Positions 233-53,642 of a stretch of DNA of 64,000 nt are shown in pieces. The notes below the pieces were generated by a model that worked only from the letters and a program-made list of their open reading frames with translations, did not search any database and was not told the origin of the DNA. Source of the stretch: Escherichia coli. Lineage in GTDB: Bacteria > Pseudomonadota > Gammaproteobacteria > Enterobacterales > Enterobacteriaceae. The stretch is from NCBI RefSeq assembly GCF_024223415.1, contig NZ_CP100500.1. One strand, 5' to 3'. The translations under genes were made by a program, and so were the position numbers. Within the stretch, counting starts at the first letter, position 1, and every line of letters starts with the position of its first letter.

Positions 233-613
233 GTTTTATGTCCTTTGCAATATTTTGAATTCACCCCTTTTGAGAGGGCGGTCAGGCGCTCAAAACCGTG
301 CAAAGTCGGCGGGCGTATTTCCCTTACGGGTATTGTATTAGCCTCACGCCCGACCATTGAATTCTCAATATCGTGGACATAAAAAATCCGCATGTCTGTC
401 GGGTGCGGTTTCCGCTTTGCAAGGTGTTTTGAGCACCATGACGCGGAATATAGCCCCGTTAACGCGACATTGTCAAACTGAAGAATTTTACGGATAGCAA
501 AAACCCCCGAACTGGTGAGGAACAGGGGTTTTTACTTTACTACTGATTTCGCGGTACGCTGATCTCAAACAGACGAGATTATCACCAGACTTGTAAAGTA
601 AGCAATGGGCGGA

Positions 614-4311: not shown

Positions 4312-4469
4312 AGTTACCTCTAACGGTGAAATTCACCGCCACCACTGAGTTGCAAATCTCATATGGGTGGCGAACTGACGAGGTTTGCAATACCGGCGTT
4401 AGAGGAAACCGGCGCGCCGAAGCGCCCCCGCCAGCCCGCCATAATGCGAACGTGGCAAAGCTTGCGACA

Positions 4470-4500
4470 ATAAAAAAGACGCTGGCGCGTCTGGTGTCGC
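4470..4500 (-). terminator. Rho-independent terminator-like hairpin downstream of the DUF2815 gene
   Basis: On the minus strand, AGACGCGCCAGCGTCT hairpin followed by TTTTTTATT (plus-strand aataaaaaagacgctggcgcgtct). Confidence 0.5.
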
Positions 4501-4691
4501 CCCTAACAATTCCGGGTTGCAAATCCCGATCTCCATTTGGGAGATTCGGTGAGCATAAACCGGAAGGGGGCGATGAGTCAATATCGGGGTAGCAGGGCGA
4601 CTGGGTGCTAACCAGAACAATACAGGTAGCTCCGGGCATATTCCCCTTTGCAAAAACACCCGGCGTTTAACCGGGCGTCTGTGAAGCAGGA

Positions 4692-11640: not shown

Positions 11641-11687
11641 TTCATTTAAATGCATATGCAATGCTGGTGAATGATAAGGGGGTGCAG

Positions 11688-12386
11688 ATGCTGACAGCAA
11701 TCAACAACGAAAAAATTGTCATCGCAAGGGACGCGCAGAAACCGGGAATTTTCGCCTGCCCGGAATGTGGTGAAGTTGTCACCCTGCGGAAAGGTTCGGT
11801 GAAAGTTCACCATTTCGCCCATCGCAGCACCACATCCTGCGGTTACGGGAAAGGCGAATCTGAGTTGCACATGGATTTGAAAATGCAGGTCTATGACGCG
11901 TTGAACGCGCATCGTGAGGTGGAATATGTTGCGATGGAGGTCGCAGTCGGTGATGTTCGTCCCGATGTGCTGGCGATTATTCGGGGTCAGAAGGTTGCTT
12001 TTGAGATTCAGGTTAGTTCGCTGAGTATTGAAGACCTCTATCGCCGCACGGTTGCGTACGCAGCTCAGGACATTGCGATGATCTGGATCCTGCACTGGCC
12101 TGAAGGTACTGCACTGGACCGGCTTTATCACCCTGCATCATGGGAGCGATGGTTACATACTTGCGGAATGGCAACTCTGTACTTCTGGGCGGGCGATGGC
12201 TGGGTCAGGCCAGTGCGTCTGGGAAACCGACAACATGGATTACAAAGAGCACCTCGTGCCCATCTGGTTGATGATTTCGAACCAAAGCGAACAGGCGGGT
12301 GGATTAAAGGTGATTTTCTGATACCTGCTCGCTTTATCTGGAATCGTGTGCGACGGCAAAAACGTAGAGGTCAGAGCTATGCGTAA
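11688..12386 (+). CDS. CoiA-like protein (competence protein CoiA-like family, predicted nuclease)
   Basis: Start at ATG 11688 (AAGGGGG RBS); N-terminal CPECGEVVTLRKGSVKVHHFAH zinc-finger-like segment typical of the CoiA-like family. Confidence 0.5.
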   Translation: MLTAINNEKIVIARDAQKPGIFACPECGEVVTLRKGSVKVHHFAHRSTTSCGYGKGESELHMDLKMQVYDALNAHREVEYVAMEVAVGDVRPDVLAIIRGQKVAFEIQVSSLSIEDLYRRTVAYAAQDIAMIWILHWPEGTALDRLYHPASWERWLHTCGMATLYFWAGDGWVRPVRLGNRQHGLQRAPRAHLVDDFEPKRTGGWIKGDFLIPARFIWNRVRRQKRRGQSYA

Positions 12387-12813
12387 TATTCAACAGGTTT
12401 TAGAGCGCTGGGGTGGCTGGGCTGCCAATAGCAACACCACAGTGAGCTGGGCTCCAATAGCGGCGGGATTTAAAGGGCTGGTAGTCAGCAGCCTGCCTGG
12501 CAGGCTGAGTTGCTGCGACGACGATGGCCTGATTATCGATGCTTGCGTCTGTCGGCTGCAGCAGGTCCGTAAGCCTGAGGAACTGGACGTCATTATGCTG
12601 TACTACGTCTACGGGTTAAGCAAACGTGAGATAGGACGGCGGCGTCGATGTTCTGAAGGATTTATCCGCCAGCAGTTGCAGGTAGCTGAGGGATTCATTG
12701 AGGGGTGTCTCTGCATGCTGGGTGTGAGCCTTCAGATGGATCCTGAGGTCGAAATTCAAAGGGATGAAAAAAGTATTAGTGCGCTACGCAAAAACTGCGC
12801 TACGCTGGTATGA
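12379..12813 (+). CDS. Q: Late-gene antiterminator Q (phage 21/82-type Q family)
   Basis: Sequence MRNIQQVLERWGGWAA ... resembles lambdoid Q antiterminators; position immediately upstream of the lysis cassette. Confidence 0.7.
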   Translation: MRNIQQVLERWGGWAANSNTTVSWAPIAAGFKGLVVSSLPGRLSCCDDDGLIIDACVCRLQQVRKPEELDVIMLYYVYGLSKREIGRRRRCSEGFIRQQLQVAEGFIEGCLCMLGVSLQMDPEVEIQRDEKSISALRKNCATLV

Positions 12814-12989
12814 GTTGAATTTCTGACCTCAACGAAGAGCTCCAAATTATTGGGGGTTTTTTGTACGCACAACAGGTAATAGTATTGAACCCGCAGACCT
12901 CGCGGAACTGGTGAAAGGTGCCGCGCAGTGCTCTTATCGTTGTGGTGAAGCTCAATGGCGAGCTAGCAGATAGGCGACAGTGAAAATAC

Positions 12990-13070
12990 TAGTCATGTAT
13001 CTGACCGCCGCGCGTACTGCAATCGGCAGCGCACCGATGGAAGCCGGTTCGATTCCGGCCGCCACAACCC
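12990..13070 (+). other. tRNA-like element (canonical T-arm GCCGG-TTCGATT-CCGGC and a foldable anticodon-like stem) that does not fold as a complete canonical tRNA
   Basis: gaagccggttcgattccggccgccaca read directly; possible anticodon stem atcgg-cagcgca-ccgat; no convincing D-arm or 5' acceptor strand at the correct spacing. Confidence 0.3.
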
Positions 13071-13187
13071 AAACTGAGCCGTAGCCACTGGCTGTCCTGA
13101 ACTCCTCAGTGATAGTTACGCTGCGGCCTTCTTTTTCCCCTTCCTAATACAAGAACTACGCAATCCGTTACTGGCGGAGGCGTTGCT

Positions 13188-13403
13188 ATGAAATCAATGG
13201 ACAAAATCTCAACTGGCATTGCCTACGGAACATCCGCTGGTAGTGCGGGATACTGGTTTTTACAGTGGTTGGATCAGGTCAGTCCGTCACAGTGGGCTGC
13301 TATTGGTGTGCTGGGGAGTCTGGCACTGGGCTTTCTGACTTATCTGACGAATCTGTACTTCAAGATAAAAGAGGACCGTCGCAAGGCGGCGCGGGGAGAG
13401 TAA
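13188..13403 (+). CDS. S: Class II holin, phage 21 S-type (pinholin) with dual starts MKSMDK
   Basis: 71-aa [74 protein letters not shown], closely resembling the phage 21 S holin as recalled; GGAGG RBS. Confidence 0.85.
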
Positions 13404-13536
13404 TTCAATGGAACATAATAATGAAAAATCCAGAGAGCACTCTGGAAACAGCAAACATTATTCCATTGCTCATTCATTCGGCGGCTTTCGTGATGTAGTC
13501 GGACAGGGTGCTGAGAGAGAACAGGAGAGTAATACA

Positions 13537-14343
13537 ATGACTCAAAACCATGAACTGGTTGTTAAAGGAACCCGAAATTTTGAGAATAAAATTGCGGTGA
13601 TTTTAACCCTGCGTGACAAAAAGCGTTTTGCCTGTGAGATATTTGACTTACACATCAACCTTGAACGACAGGAAGGCGCCACTCTGGAGTTTTATGAGTC
13701 AGAGGCAATAAAACGGGCAAAGACATTGTTCCGGGATGTTGCTGCAGGGTTATGTGAAGGGGACGAGCTGTCGCCGGAAAAGCGCCCCATAATTTTACAG
13801 GCGCACAATGTGTGGATAACCTACAAAGGAAAGCTACCGGGAAGAATTACTGGTTCTCTGAAGATGCCGCCGTCAACACTGCGGTCAGAAAAAGAGGCGT
13901 CTTGTCTGCAGTCTGAGTACTCCATTACGGTTAAAAGTGCCGGAGAGGAAGGAAATAAACGTTATTTTATTGCGTCTGCACCTGATAAAGATCAGGAATG
14001 GGAGTGTAACCGGCCATCCTTTGTTGTATACGGAGATGGCGGGAAAATAACCATCTCAGAAAATGGGAAATTAACACCGCCATCGCACCAGCATAGTGAG
14101 GCGCTCATTGAATTTGCCATTGATTACCTGAAGAACAATAAAAAGCAGGGGCTGATGAAGCGCATTGGTCGTTGCATGGGATATCTGCAGGTAGCAGCTG
14201 AGATTGAAATGATGGCCAGTGGTGCTGACAATGATGCAGTTGTGCTGGAGGCTCTTCTGCGTGATTTTGATAATACGCCCTTTAAGAAAGCACCTGTTGA
14301 CTGGATGCAGCCGGGGATGACTTATCTGAAAGGGCGTATATAA
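13537..14343 (+). CDS. Hypothetical protein (moron inserted between holin and endolysin)
   Basis: ORF track frame 13408..14343; preferred start ATG 13537 preceded by AGGAG; no recognised domain. Confidence 0.45.
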   Translation: MTQNHELVVKGTRNFENKIAVILTLRDKKRFACEIFDLHINLERQEGATLEFYESEAIKRAKTLFRDVAAGLCEGDELSPEKRPIILQAHNVWITYKGKLPGRITGSLKMPPSTLRSEKEASCLQSEYSITVKSAGEEGNKRYFIASAPDKDQEWECNRPSFVVYGDGGKITISENGKLTPPSHQHSEALIEFAIDYLKNNKKQGLMKRIGRCMGYLQVAAEIEMMASGADNDAVVLEALLRDFDNTPFKKAPVDWMQPGMTYLKGRI

Positions 14344-53456: not shown

Positions 53457-53642
53457 AGTGGCTCATTCACCGACTTATGTCAGCCCCTTCGGGACGTGCT
53501 ACATAAAATTCGAATGACGCACAACAAGGTGCCTGCCGTCCAACTTCTGATATCAGCGTAGCTATATCAACCATCGGGCGAAACGTCGAGTTAGGCACCG
53601 CCTTATTCCATAACAAAGCCGGGTAATTCCCGGCTTTGTTGT
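53457..53642 (+). ncRNA. glmY: GlmY small regulatory RNA
   Basis: Begins agtggctcattcaccgacttatgtcagcccc downstream of the sigma-54 promoter, ends at terminator aaagccgggtaattcccggctttgttgt; located between purL and glrK as in E. coli K-12. Confidence 0.8.

What the first reader, a model, noticed from the sequence alone, without database searches (positions are those of the whole stretch)
12880..13100. tRNA-like T-arm element between Q and the holin
The sequence gaagccggttcgattccggccgccaca contains a canonical T-stem-loop and 3' acceptor-like strand, and an anticodon-like stem (atcgg/ccgat) is present, but I cannot fold a complete cloverleaf. Lambdoid phages often carry tRNA genes exactly here, so this may be a degenerate tRNA, an unusual tRNA, or part of the late promoter/terminator RNA region.
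Basis: seen in the sequence. Interest (0 to 1): 0.35.

Follow-up and report, generated by a model that had tools for sequence, protein, structure and literature searches.

The report
Non-decoding tRNA-like phage RNA gene
Between the late-gene activator Q and the lysis genes, this prophage carries a conserved gene for a tRNA-shaped RNA that has no usable anticodon. It belongs to a large family of phage RNAs, with a relative in phage lambda itself, that is absent from Rfam 15, from the annotation of every genome and phage record examined, and from the searchable literature.

Summary
It also has an extra 55-nt arm, and that arm is why no cloverleaf could be drawn. ARAGORN and Rfam do not call it a tRNA.

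In 31 distinct relatives from Escherichia, Salmonella, Klebsiella and Pantoea phages, 94.7% of pair cells are standard pairs and 18 of 37 pairs show compensatory changes. It is therefore a selected, structured RNA and neither a decaying pseudogene nor a decoding tRNA.

The long arm ends in a loop whose 6-nt palindrome changes sequence but always stays self-complementary, which suggests kissing-loop dimers.

The supposed leader is the 3' strand of a covarying 13-bp helix (P0, 12875-12887 / 12926-12938), preceded by a conserved CACAACA.

The same P0 plus acceptor-like frame encloses unrelated interiors in hundreds of phage records, including lambda just after tR'. Some interiors mimic the tRNA elbow by loop-loop pairing. 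Some copy 16S rRNA nt 243-282.

My best reading is a late-expressed, RNase P-processed tRNA mimic that acts in trans. Its function is not established.

The parts
12840..12865 (+). Intrinsic-terminator-like hairpin plus T-run just after Q. It is the counterpart of tR', so the element lies downstream of it and should need Q read-through to be transcribed.
   Evidence: Terminator scan. HK75 annotates pR' and tR' at the homologous place, and homology to HK75 starts at 12857.
12868..12874 (+). Conserved CACAACA motif immediately 5' of helix P0. It is complementary to GUUGUG (12939-12944), so it could pair as an alternative to the acceptor stem.
   Evidence: Each position is conserved in 115-151 of 163 distinct copies. 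Natural variants stay wobble-compatible, and one copy is compensatory. Whether this pairing forms is inferred.
12875..12887 (+). Helix P0, 5' strand (GGTAATAGTATTG).
   Evidence: Pairs with 12926-12938 (12 of 13 pairs here). Many compensatory variants exist in relatives. It is present in the MFE fold of 12866-13070.
12888..12925 (+). Interior of P0. It is 38 nt here and varies in sequence and in length (29-96 nt) across relatives.
12926..12938 (+). Helix P0, 3' strand (CAGTGCTCTTATC). This is the apparent conserved 'leader'.
12941..12947 (+). Acceptor-like stem, 5' strand (TGTGGTG). The predicted RNase P cleavage site is between 12940 and 12941.
   Evidence: Pairs with 13060-13066. AU/UA and GC/AU swaps occur in relatives. 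Cleavage is inferred.
12950..12963 (+). D-arm: stem GCTC/GAGC with loop AATGGC carrying the GG of a tRNA D-loop.
   Evidence: 99% of cells paired, almost invariant.
12966..13020 (+). Long extra arm. It comprises basal stem GCAG 12966-12969 / CTGC 13017-13020, a conserved internal loop ATA 12970-12972 / GCGCGTA 13010-13016, an upper stem 12973-12980 / 13001-13009, and a 20-nt apical loop 12981-13000.
   Evidence: Helices 3 and 4. 10 of their 13 pairs show changes on both sides, and one pair occurs as GC, CG, AU and UA.
12988..12993 (+). Self-complementary hexamer ACTAGT in the apical loop, a candidate kissing-loop dimerisation site.
   Evidence: 100% self-complementary in 31 distinct sequences, in seven different hexamers. 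Dimerisation is inferred.
13022..13038 (+). Anticodon-arm-shaped hairpin ATCGG CAGCGCA CCGAT. It can also be read as a class-II variable arm.
   Evidence: The Rfam tRNA model places it as a variable arm in the PdC23 copy. Its invariance in A1 is partly by design, because it was the search pattern.
13043..13059 (+). T-arm GCCGG TTCGATT CCGGC.
   Evidence: (3 of 5 pairs with compensatory change).
13060..13067 (+). Acceptor-like stem 3' strand CGCCACA plus discriminator A. It is followed by CCC, not CCA.

Best explanation
Window 12868-13067 encodes a roughly 200-nt structured RNA unit. Its 3' module (12941-13067) is a tRNA-derived RNA that does not decode.

Shown:
- The module folds as a five-way junction with an acceptor stem, a D-arm, a T-arm, an anticodon-arm-shaped hairpin and an extra 55-nt arm.
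- All helices are kept by compensatory change.
- The module moves as a discrete unit between unrelated phage backbones.
- It shares a frame (CACAACA, 13-bp helix P0, then the acceptor-like helix UGUGGUG/CACCACA) with a much larger family whose interiors are otherwise unrelated.

Inferred:
- It is transcribed late, by Q-dependent read-through of the upstream terminator.
- It is cut out of the long late transcript by the host tRNA-processing machinery, with RNase P cleaving at 12940/12941, because it offers the acceptor/T-arm minihelix and the elbow those enzymes recognise.
- Two molecules join through the palindromic apical loop.
- The RNA acts in trans as a mimic of host tRNA, binding or diverting a host or defence protein that recognises the top half of a tRNA, without entering translation.
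For: Anatomy:
- Searches give the arms and the fold.

Conservation and covariation:
- 94.7% of cells are paired against 83.2% in shuffles.
- 18 of 37 pairs have double changes.
- The covariation score is 0.332, against at most 0.096 for slid registers.
- 0 of 500 shuffles reach the observed values.

Descent from tRNA:
- Rfam's tRNA model scores the PdC23 copy at 37.4 bits, above its gathering score of 29.
- The family model R1 weakly hits genuine T4 tRNA-Thr and tRNA-Ser.

Not a decoder:
- The loop reads CAGCGCA.
- The relaxed-ARAGORN 'anticodon' GGC lies in a covarying stem and reads GUU, GGU or GAC in relatives.

Discrete module:
- Identity is 92-95% to Salmonella Skatevirus over 12926-13068 only, within otherwise unrelated genomes.
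- It occurs in 163 of 5426 complete E. coli genomes and is never annotated as RNA.

An independent gene:
- In Skatevirus and KlebP_265 it lies on the strand opposite to the flanking structural genes.
- In Skatevirus a TTGACA-17-TAGATT promoter-like site lies upstream on the element's strand, although the scan found about as many sites in shuffled sequence (1 found, 0.9 expected).

Link to tRNA processing:
- All 35 copies that have a tRNA within 600 nt have it on the same strand.
- Some copies start 2 nt after another T-arm/acceptor end.
- Position -1 is U, and A73-C74-C75 follow the stem. That these suit E. coli RNase P rests on established knowledge.

Dimer:
- Seven different hexamers occur, all self-complementary.

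Mimicry theme:
- Type-K relatives replace the D/T loops by complementary loops GCUGA/UCAGC, with the covarying variant GUCGA/UCGAC.
- Some carry a copy of 16S rRNA nt 243-282.
Against: - There is no expression, processing, dimer or binding data. Every step after 'conserved structured RNA' is inference.
- A8 replaces the near-universal U8, and CCA is not encoded.
- In lambdoid phages the element lies in the 5' untranslated leader of the late operon, which fits a cis role equally well.
- The conserved CACAACA and helix P0 are not explained by a simple 'tRNA mimic' model.
- The A1 sequences were collected with a pattern from the 13022-13042 arm, so that arm's invariance is circular.
- The sequences are related to one another, so the shuffle statistics overstate significance.
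- No partner protein gene is consistently linked.
Confidence: 0.55

Rival explanations
1. It is a cis-acting element of the late transcript. The tRNA-like fold and P0 would act as a processing 'punctuation mark' or 5' stabiliser for the lysis and structural mRNA, or as a folding switch (CACAAC pairing with GUUGUG versus the acceptor stem) that tunes late-gene expression. No free RNA would have a function.
For: - The element lies between the tR'-like terminator and the holin, in the window and in lambda.
- CACAACA is strongly conserved and is complementary to the start of the acceptor strand.
- When the 3' strand is absent, the lambda RNA folds into the extended P0.
- The frame is conserved while the interiors vary freely.
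Against: - In Skatevirus, ST1UNAM and KlebP_265 the element is on the strand opposite to all neighbouring genes, and it sits in tRNA clusters, so there is no downstream mRNA to control.
- The type-T interior is itself under strong structural selection, including loops.
Confidence: 0.2
2. It is a working tRNA with an exceptional anticodon arm or an intron. After an unknown excision or ligation step, or even without one, it would be charged and would decode.
For: - ARAGORN with introns allowed and the threshold lowered to 90% draws a tRNA-Ala(GGC) with a 38-nt intron.
- The Rfam tRNA model passes its threshold on the PdC23 copy.
- One phage record annotates the 3' 58 nt as tRNA-Ser.
- Genuine tRNAs occupy this slot in relatives.
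Against: - Default ARAGORN, with or without introns, finds nothing, and Rfam finds nothing in the window.
- The 'anticodon' bases are paired, covary and change identity between relatives.
- The only 7-nt loop lacks U33 and R37.
- Bacteria are not known to have a splicing endonuclease for short tRNA introns (established knowledge).
- The 'intron' is the most elaborately conserved part, palindrome included.
Confidence: 0.05
3. It is a decaying tRNA pseudogene: a former phage tRNA disrupted by an insertion and now drifting.
For: - It is not detected by the standard tRNA finders.
- It lies in a slot where tRNA genes come and go.
Against: - Compensatory changes occur in every helix, including the insert.
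- The loops are invariant.
- Identity is 92-99% across Escherichia, Salmonella, Klebsiella and Pantoea phages with unrelated backbones.
Confidence: 0.02
4. It is a DNA-level feature: conserved inverted ends (GTTGTGGTG...CACCACAAC) that mark a recombination cassette or module boundary, with the RNA fold incidental.
For: - The ends are conserved and the interior is hypervariable.
- The CUS-3 record annotates 'boundary sequences' around the equivalent place.
- Homology breakpoints coincide with the ends of the element.
Against: - G-U-tolerant covariation, loop-loop complementarity, strand-specific T- and D-loop consensus, and co-orientation with tRNA genes all point to RNA.
- No target-site duplications or repeated identical copies were seen.
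- The polarity is opposite to that of integron attC core sites.
Confidence: 0.05

Closest known systems
Transfer RNA (Rfam RF00005), especially class II tRNAs with a long variable arm
   Same: - A 7-bp acceptor stem stacked on a 5-bp T-stem.
- A canonical T-loop.
- A D-arm with GG.
- An extra stem-loop before the T-arm.
- It sits where phage tRNA genes sit and is co-oriented with them.
   Different: - There is no anticodon loop. The arm in the anticodon position is 55 nt with a 20-nt loop.
- A8 replaces U8.
- CCA is not encoded.
- The window copy is below the detection thresholds.
Phage T4 species 1 RNA (rnaC) and species 2 RNA (rnaD), the stable RNAs of the T4 tRNA cluster
   Same: - Both are phage-encoded.
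- rnaC is about 120-140 nt.
- It is co-transcribed with tRNAs.
- It ends in a canonical T-arm plus an acceptor-like strand.
- To my knowledge its function is still unknown.
   Different: - No sequence or model similarity was found. R1 does not hit rnaC or rnaD.
- rnaC has no clear D-arm.
- It has no P0 frame and no palindromic loop.
C4 antisense RNA of P1/P7 and the CI RNA of P4 (Rfam RF01695)
   Same: These are small phage RNAs closed by an acceptor-like stem and matured from a longer transcript by RNase P (my knowledge of the published work). A C4 copy is present in this same window at 4363-4446.
   Different: - C4 has no D- or T-arm.
- It acts through two loops that base-pair with a target in its own operon.
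- No such target was found here.
Bacterial Y RNA YrlA
   Same: It is a non-coding RNA with a tRNA-like module (T-arm, D-arm, acceptor-like stem). It is found in Salmonella and in some phages (my knowledge).
   Different: - In YrlA the ends lie at the 'anticodon' side and form the Ro/Rsr-binding stem.
- No Rfam Y-RNA family matched at E up to 10.
- No rsr gene is linked.
Methylophilales-1 RNA motif (Rfam RF03011)
   Same: One relative that shares the P0 and closing-stem frame (L048) aligns over the full model, including the closing stem and the GAAUAAGGCA...UGCCGA core.
   Different: - The score is 28 bits against a gathering score of 79.9.
- The window copy does not match at all.
- It is at most a sister interior within the same frame.
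GOLLD and ROOL RNAs
   Same: - They are phage-associated.
- They often lie next to tRNA genes.
- Their function is unknown.
- They self-assemble through kissing loops (bioRxiv 10.1101/2024.12.08.627333; PMC5737381).
   Different: - They are 5-6 times larger.
- They have no tRNA arms.
- They occur in different host phyla.

Membership tests
tRNA (decoding) | Detected by tRNA finders or the Rfam RF00005 model at threshold | tested here: not met
   ARAGORN found none (default settings). Rfam found no tRNA hit in the window even at E<=10. The PdC23 relative passes at 37.4 bits, with a 45-nt insert.
tRNA (decoding) | Acceptor stem, D-arm and T-arm with a canonical T-loop | tested here: met
tRNA (decoding) | A 7-nt anticodon loop with U33 and a purine at 37 on a 5-bp stem in the anticodon position | tested here: not met
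   The arm in that position carries a 20-nt loop. The other hairpin's loop is C-A-G-C-G-C-A. The bases of the putative anticodon are paired and covary.
tRNA (decoding) | Aminoacylation and use on the ribosome | not testable with these tools
   This needs charging assays.
tmRNA | Rfam tmRNA models, a tag-peptide reading frame, and a G3:U70 acceptor | tested here: not met
   Only the 17-nt T-arm matches, at 10 bits against a gathering score of 47. ARAGORN -m finds nothing. Pair 3:70 is U:A.
Methylophilales-1 RNA (RF03011) | Score at or above the gathering threshold of 79.9 bits | tested here: not met
   The window has no hit. Relative L048 scores 28 bits.
C4 antisense RNA (RF01695) | A match to the Rfam model | tested here: not met
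   There is no hit at 12780-13200, although the model does find the genuine C4 at 4363-4446.
T4 species 1 / species 2 RNA | Sequence or structure similarity to rnaC or rnaD | tested here: not met
   R1 does not hit L331:2909-3172. The folds differ.
New family proposed here (P0 plus acceptor-like frame; 'type T' interior) | CACAACA, a 13-bp P0, a 2-nt linker, UGUGGUG...CACCACA closing an interior that holds a D-arm, the long palindrome-tipped arm, the AUCGG-YAGCGCA-CCGAU hairpin and a T-arm | tested here: met
   (146 bits, full length, though the window copy was in the training alignment).
RNase P substrate | Cleavage at the 5' end of the acceptor stem | not testable with these tools
   Only the structural prerequisites were seen.

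The most novel reading that the evidence does not exclude
The window copy is one member of an undescribed superfamily of phage RNAs. In this superfamily a fixed frame (CACAACA, helix P0, and a tRNA-acceptor-like helix) serves as a processing-and-stability scaffold. The scaffold displays interchangeable, fast-evolving mimics of host RNAs: tRNA arms here, a base-paired imitation of the tRNA elbow in others, and a 16S rRNA helix in others. These mimics would act as decoys for host RNA-binding proteins or for RNA-targeting anti-phage defence nucleases. The type-T members would work as kissing-loop dimers. Phage lambda would then carry an overlooked functional RNA between tR' and S.
Probability: 0.3. 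Interest if true: 0.85.

Novelty: new variant of a known kind. Interest (0 to 1): 0.62.

Why it matters
tRNA-like non-coding RNAs of phages, such as T4 species 1 RNA, have gone unexplained for fifty years.

This family is common:
- It is in 3% of complete E. coli genomes.
- The related frame is in at least 240 phage records from Klebsiella, Pseudomonas, Erwinia, Aeromonas, Xanthomonas and others.
- A relative sits in lambda.

The family is genetically tractable, and standard annotation does not detect it.

Its modular frame with swappable interiors, some of which copy host tRNA or rRNA pieces, gives a concrete and testable handle on RNA-level mimicry in phage-host conflict. It is also a natural counterpart of the engineered 'tRNA scaffold'.

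Practically, genome pipelines will go on calling it nothing, a hypothetical protein or a partial tRNA-Ser until a covariance model exists.

Tried and rejected
- **Rfam.** I searched at gathering and at E<=10 on the window, on relatives and on lambda. Only tRNA (one relative) and a weak Methylophilales-1 match (another relative) appeared.
- **Intron-containing tRNA.** Rejected because the 'anticodon' is paired and variable.
- **Pairing between the invariant loops CAGCGCA and GCGCGUA.** The L035 and L092 variants do not covary.
- **Antisense target for the apical loop.** I searched the whole window on both strands and found nothing beyond chance-level duplexes.
- **Pairing of the 'leader' with the 3' trailer.** It is absent in this lineage, although another type-T lineage does extend the acceptor stem that way. 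The leader pairs upstream instead, forming P0.
- **Leader as a promoter.** It is not conserved as one.
- **Homology to T4 rnaC or rnaD.** None found.
- **Similarity of the type-T interior to E. coli core genes.** None found.
- **Integron attC.** The polarity is wrong.
- **Small ORFs across the element (34-37 aa).** These are inconsistent with the substitution pattern.
- **Genome-contig scan.** Four of six hits were chance 22-mers inside unrelated sequence.
- **Literature.** Nine full-text searches, including exact sequence strings, found no description. The Pas sRNA preprint (10.64898/2026.05.13.724894) concerns other RNAs near the holin.
- **tRNAscan-SE.** It was not available.

Full report
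**Observation**

The parts it recognised are these:
- GGAA, 13039-13042
- T-arm GCCGG-TTCGATT-CCGGC, 13043-13059
- CGCCACA, 13060-13066
- the ATCGG/CCGAT hairpin, 13022-13038

TGTGGTG (12941-12947) pairs with CGCCACA, and it is followed by AA and a D-arm GCTC-AATGGC-GAGC (12950-12963). Between the D-arm and the ATCGG hairpin lies a further 55-nt arm (12966-13020). That arm is why no cloverleaf could be drawn.

RNAfold gives a five-arm structure at -50.6 kcal/mol, z = -3.0. The T-arm consensus occurs once in the window against 0.14 expected, and 11 of 100 shuffles had a match. The T-arm alone is therefore weak evidence. The case rests on the whole fold and on its conservation.

**Standard detectors**

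ARAGORN finds no tRNA or tmRNA in the window. Rfam 15 finds nothing at 12780-13200 except the bare T-arm against the tmRNA models, at 10 bits.

With introns allowed and the threshold lowered, ARAGORN draws a 'tRNA-Ala(GGC) with a 38-nt intron'. RefSeq annotation leaves all 175 copies in 163 of 5426 complete E. coli genomes either unannotated or labelled as a hypothetical protein. One phage record labels the last 58 nt 'tRNA-Ser'.

**Context**

- Upstream is a Phage_antitermQ protein, 12346-12813.
- Downstream are a P21-type holin (13188-13403), a DUF1327 protein and a lysozyme.
- A terminator-like hairpin with a T-run is at 12840-12865. Phage HK75, which is 96% identical from 12857 onward, annotates pR' and tR' at the corresponding place.

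The element therefore lies after tR', in the leader of the late operon.

In another lambdoid prophage the same slot holds tRNA-Asn and tRNA-Thr, and homology with the window resumes exactly at the tRNA 3' end.

**Relatives and structure ('type T')**

The segment 12926-13068, and nothing else, is 92-95% identical in the following:
- Salmonella Skatevirus genomes
- a Pantoea phage (79%)
- another Salmonella siphovirus (81%)
- a Klebsiella prophage

A pattern scan of viral contigs gave 69 distinct copies. I aligned 31 of them with the window (A1) and counted pairs for the structure I propose. The results were:
- 94.7% of cells form standard pairs, against 83.2% in shuffles.
- 18 of 37 pairs have changes on both sides.
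- The covariation score is 0.332, against at most 0.096 for registers slid by 1-3 columns.
- 0 of 500 shuffles reach any observed value.

Two caveats apply. The sequences are related to one another. The 13022-13042 arm was the search pattern, so its invariance says nothing.

The extra arm is the best supported part. 10 of the 13 pairs in its two helices show double changes, and one pair occurs as GC, CG, AU and UA.

The base triplet that relaxed ARAGORN calls an anticodon lies in that paired region and reads GGC, GUU, GGU or GAC in different copies. The only 7-nt loop, C-A-GCG-C-A, lacks U33 and a purine at position 37. I conclude that this is a selected RNA structure derived from a tRNA. In support, Rfam's tRNA model scores the Pantoea copy at 37.4 bits, and my model R1 weakly hits genuine tRNAs. 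It is neither a pseudogene nor a decoder.

**A covarying palindrome**

The 20-nt apical loop contains ACTAGT (12988-12993). In relatives the same columns read TCTAGA, GCTAGC, TCCGGA, TCGCGA, ACCGGT or TCTGGA. Every one of the 31 distinct sequences is self-complementary, allowing G-U.

A 6-nt palindrome cannot pair within one loop. The simplest reading is a kissing-loop homodimer. This is inferred and not shown.

**The 'leader' is a helix, and the frame is shared**

The 14 nt before the acceptor stem (CAGTGCTCTTATCG) first looked like a conserved leader, and it recurs in phages whose interior is quite different. It is in fact the 3' strand of a 13-bp helix, P0, whose 5' strand is GGTAATAGTATTG (12875-12887).

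Relatives show many fully compensated versions. Examples are:
- GGAGAGAGTATTT / AAGTACTCTCTTC
- GGTAATGGCACTT / GAGTGCCATTATC
- GATAATCGGAATT / GATTCCGATTATC

When the 5' strand is located only by its upstream anchor, 10.8 of 13 positions pair. With shuffled partners the figure is 9.6, with a maximum of 10.0 in 500 shuffles. P0 encloses 29-96 nt of variable sequence, and it appears in the MFE fold of 12866-13070.

Immediately 5' of P0 is CACAACA (12868-12874), conserved at 115-151 of 163 distinct copies per position. CACAAC is complementary to GUUGUG (12939-12944). If they paired, P0 would lengthen to 19 bp at the expense of the acceptor stem. Natural variants remain wobble-compatible, and one is compensatory. 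I regard this as an unexplained lead: it could be a folding switch, a co-transcriptional guard or a protein site.

**The wider family**

The same frame (CACAACA, P0, a 2-nt linker, then UGUGGUG...CACCACA) closes at least three other kinds of interior.

- **'Type K'.** This is the commonest kind. It has a hairpin UGCGCA-GGCUGA-UGCGCA after the 5' strand and a hairpin GCCGG-AGAUCAGCA-CCGGC before the 3' strand. Their loops are complementary (GCUGA/UCAGC, with a covarying GUCGA/UCGAC variant). This amounts to a Watson-Crick imitation of the D-loop/T-loop elbow. A hypervariable stretch of 5-161 nt lies between them.
- **A smaller kind.** Examples are PJ16 and lambda.
- **A kind that weakly matches Rfam's Methylophilales-1 motif.** It scores 28 bits against a gathering score of 79.9.

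BLAST with a type-K copy finds 240 phage records, none annotated. They come from Klebsiella, Pseudomonas, Escherichia, Erwinia, Aeromonas, Xanthomonas, P1-like and Stx phages.

Phage lambda has a member directly after tR' (NC_001416 44787-44939). Its closing stem has covaried to UGUGCUG/CAGCACA, and Rfam has nothing there.

Some type-K interiors are 85% identical over 40 nt to E. coli 16S rRNA positions 243-282. From memory this is helix 11.

Family members lie within 600 nt of a tRNA gene in 35 cases, always on the same strand. Some begin 2 nt after another T-arm/acceptor end. In Skatevirus and KlebP_265 the element, with or without tRNAs, is on the strand opposite to all neighbouring genes. 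In Skatevirus a TTGACA-17-TAGATT promoter-like site lies upstream, though the scan expected about one such site by chance.

**How it most likely works**

Shown: a conserved, modular, tRNA-derived structured RNA gene.

Inferred:
- In this prophage it is transcribed only when Q lets RNA polymerase pass the upstream terminator.
- The acceptor/T-arm minihelix and the elbow make it a substrate for RNase P (U at -1, and A73-C74-C75 after the stem) and for 3' trimming, so it is released from the late transcript as phage tRNAs are.
- Two molecules pair through the palindromic loop.
- The RNA acts in trans as a tRNA look-alike that occupies some host or defence factor recognising the upper half of a tRNA.

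Two observations favour mimicry as the common theme. Other family members imitate the same upper half by different means. Some display a ribosomal RNA helix.

I put 0.55 on this package. I put about 0.9 on 'selected non-decoding tRNA-like RNA', and much less on the individual mechanistic steps.

The main rival (0.2) is a purely cis role in the late leader, in processing, stabilisation or a switch. That rival explains CACAACA and P0 better, but it does not explain the stand-alone, opposite-strand copies in virulent phages.

**Comparison with known families**

| Known RNA | What it shares | Why the window element is not a member |
|---|---|---|
| tRNA | Acceptor stem, D-arm, T-arm | Fails on the anticodon arm and on the detection thresholds |
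| T4 species 1 RNA | Theme: a tRNA-like stable RNA in a phage tRNA cluster, function unknown | No similarity |
| C4 / CI RNAs | Precedent for RNase P-matured phage RNAs with an acceptor-like stem | Not related by model |
| YrlA | A tRNA-like module | Opposite topology |
| GOLLD / ROOL | Phage and tRNA neighbourhood; kissing-loop assembly | 5-6 times larger, no tRNA arms |

Nine full-text searches, including exact sequence strings, found no description of this family. I cannot exclude one in literature that the tool does not hold.

**Verdict**

The element is a new variant of a known kind, a phage tRNA-like non-coding RNA. It belongs to a widespread family whose frame reaches into lambda and that I found neither annotated nor described.

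Noticed in passing
L338:988-1140 (phage lambda NC_001416 44787-44939): Lambda carries a member of the same frame directly after tR': CACAACA, then P0 (GGTAAGAGCATTG / CAGTGCTCTTTCC), then a closing stem TGTGCTG / CAGCACA around a 67-nt interior. It is unannotated and has no Rfam match.
   Followed up: partly
L082, L050, L032, L051 (type-K interiors); L339: The hypervariable interior of some relatives is 85% identical over 40 nt to E. coli 16S rRNA positions 243-282. It looks like a displayed copy of a ribosomal RNA helix.
   Followed up: partly
window 12868-12874 and 12939-12944: The conserved CACAACA upstream of P0 is complementary to the linker plus the start of the acceptor strand. This allows a mutually exclusive alternative fold.
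   Followed up: partly
window 13078-13140: A long hairpin, GCCGTAGC (13078-13085) / GCTGCGGC (13120-13127), is followed by a T-rich run. It is shared with lambda's late leader. It may be a second terminator or a processing structure downstream of the element.
   Followed up: no
window 4363-4446 (-), 4472-4545 (-), 272-355 (-), 53457-53604 (+): Rfam gathering-level hits to C4 antisense RNA, isrK, sRNA-Xcc1 and GlmY. C4 plus isrK suggests a P4-like or P1-like immunity region a few kb upstream of the Q-lysis block.
   Followed up: no
window 13408-14343 (+) and 11661-12386 (+): A 311-aa DUF1327 protein is inserted between the P21-type holin and the lysozyme. A CoiA-like nuclease ORF overlaps the start of Q.
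   Followed up: no
L001:2646-2710; L008 about 1700-1770: Downstream of the element, Skatevirus and the 9NA-like phage PJ16 share a second long hairpin containing TAGGGGTATGT. It may be another conserved RNA.
   Followed up: no
L007:1501-1760; L088:38-400; L245; L252; L276: Two family members can sit in tandem (K+K, or K+T), followed by two or three genuine tRNA genes on the same strand. In L222 the interior of P0 itself contains a T-arm/acceptor-like sequence.
   Followed up: partly
L004:581-1093 (HK629): An HNH endonuclease gene is inserted between the late terminator region and the type-K element. T4 likewise has the homing endonuclease segB inside its tRNA / stable-RNA cluster.
   Followed up: no
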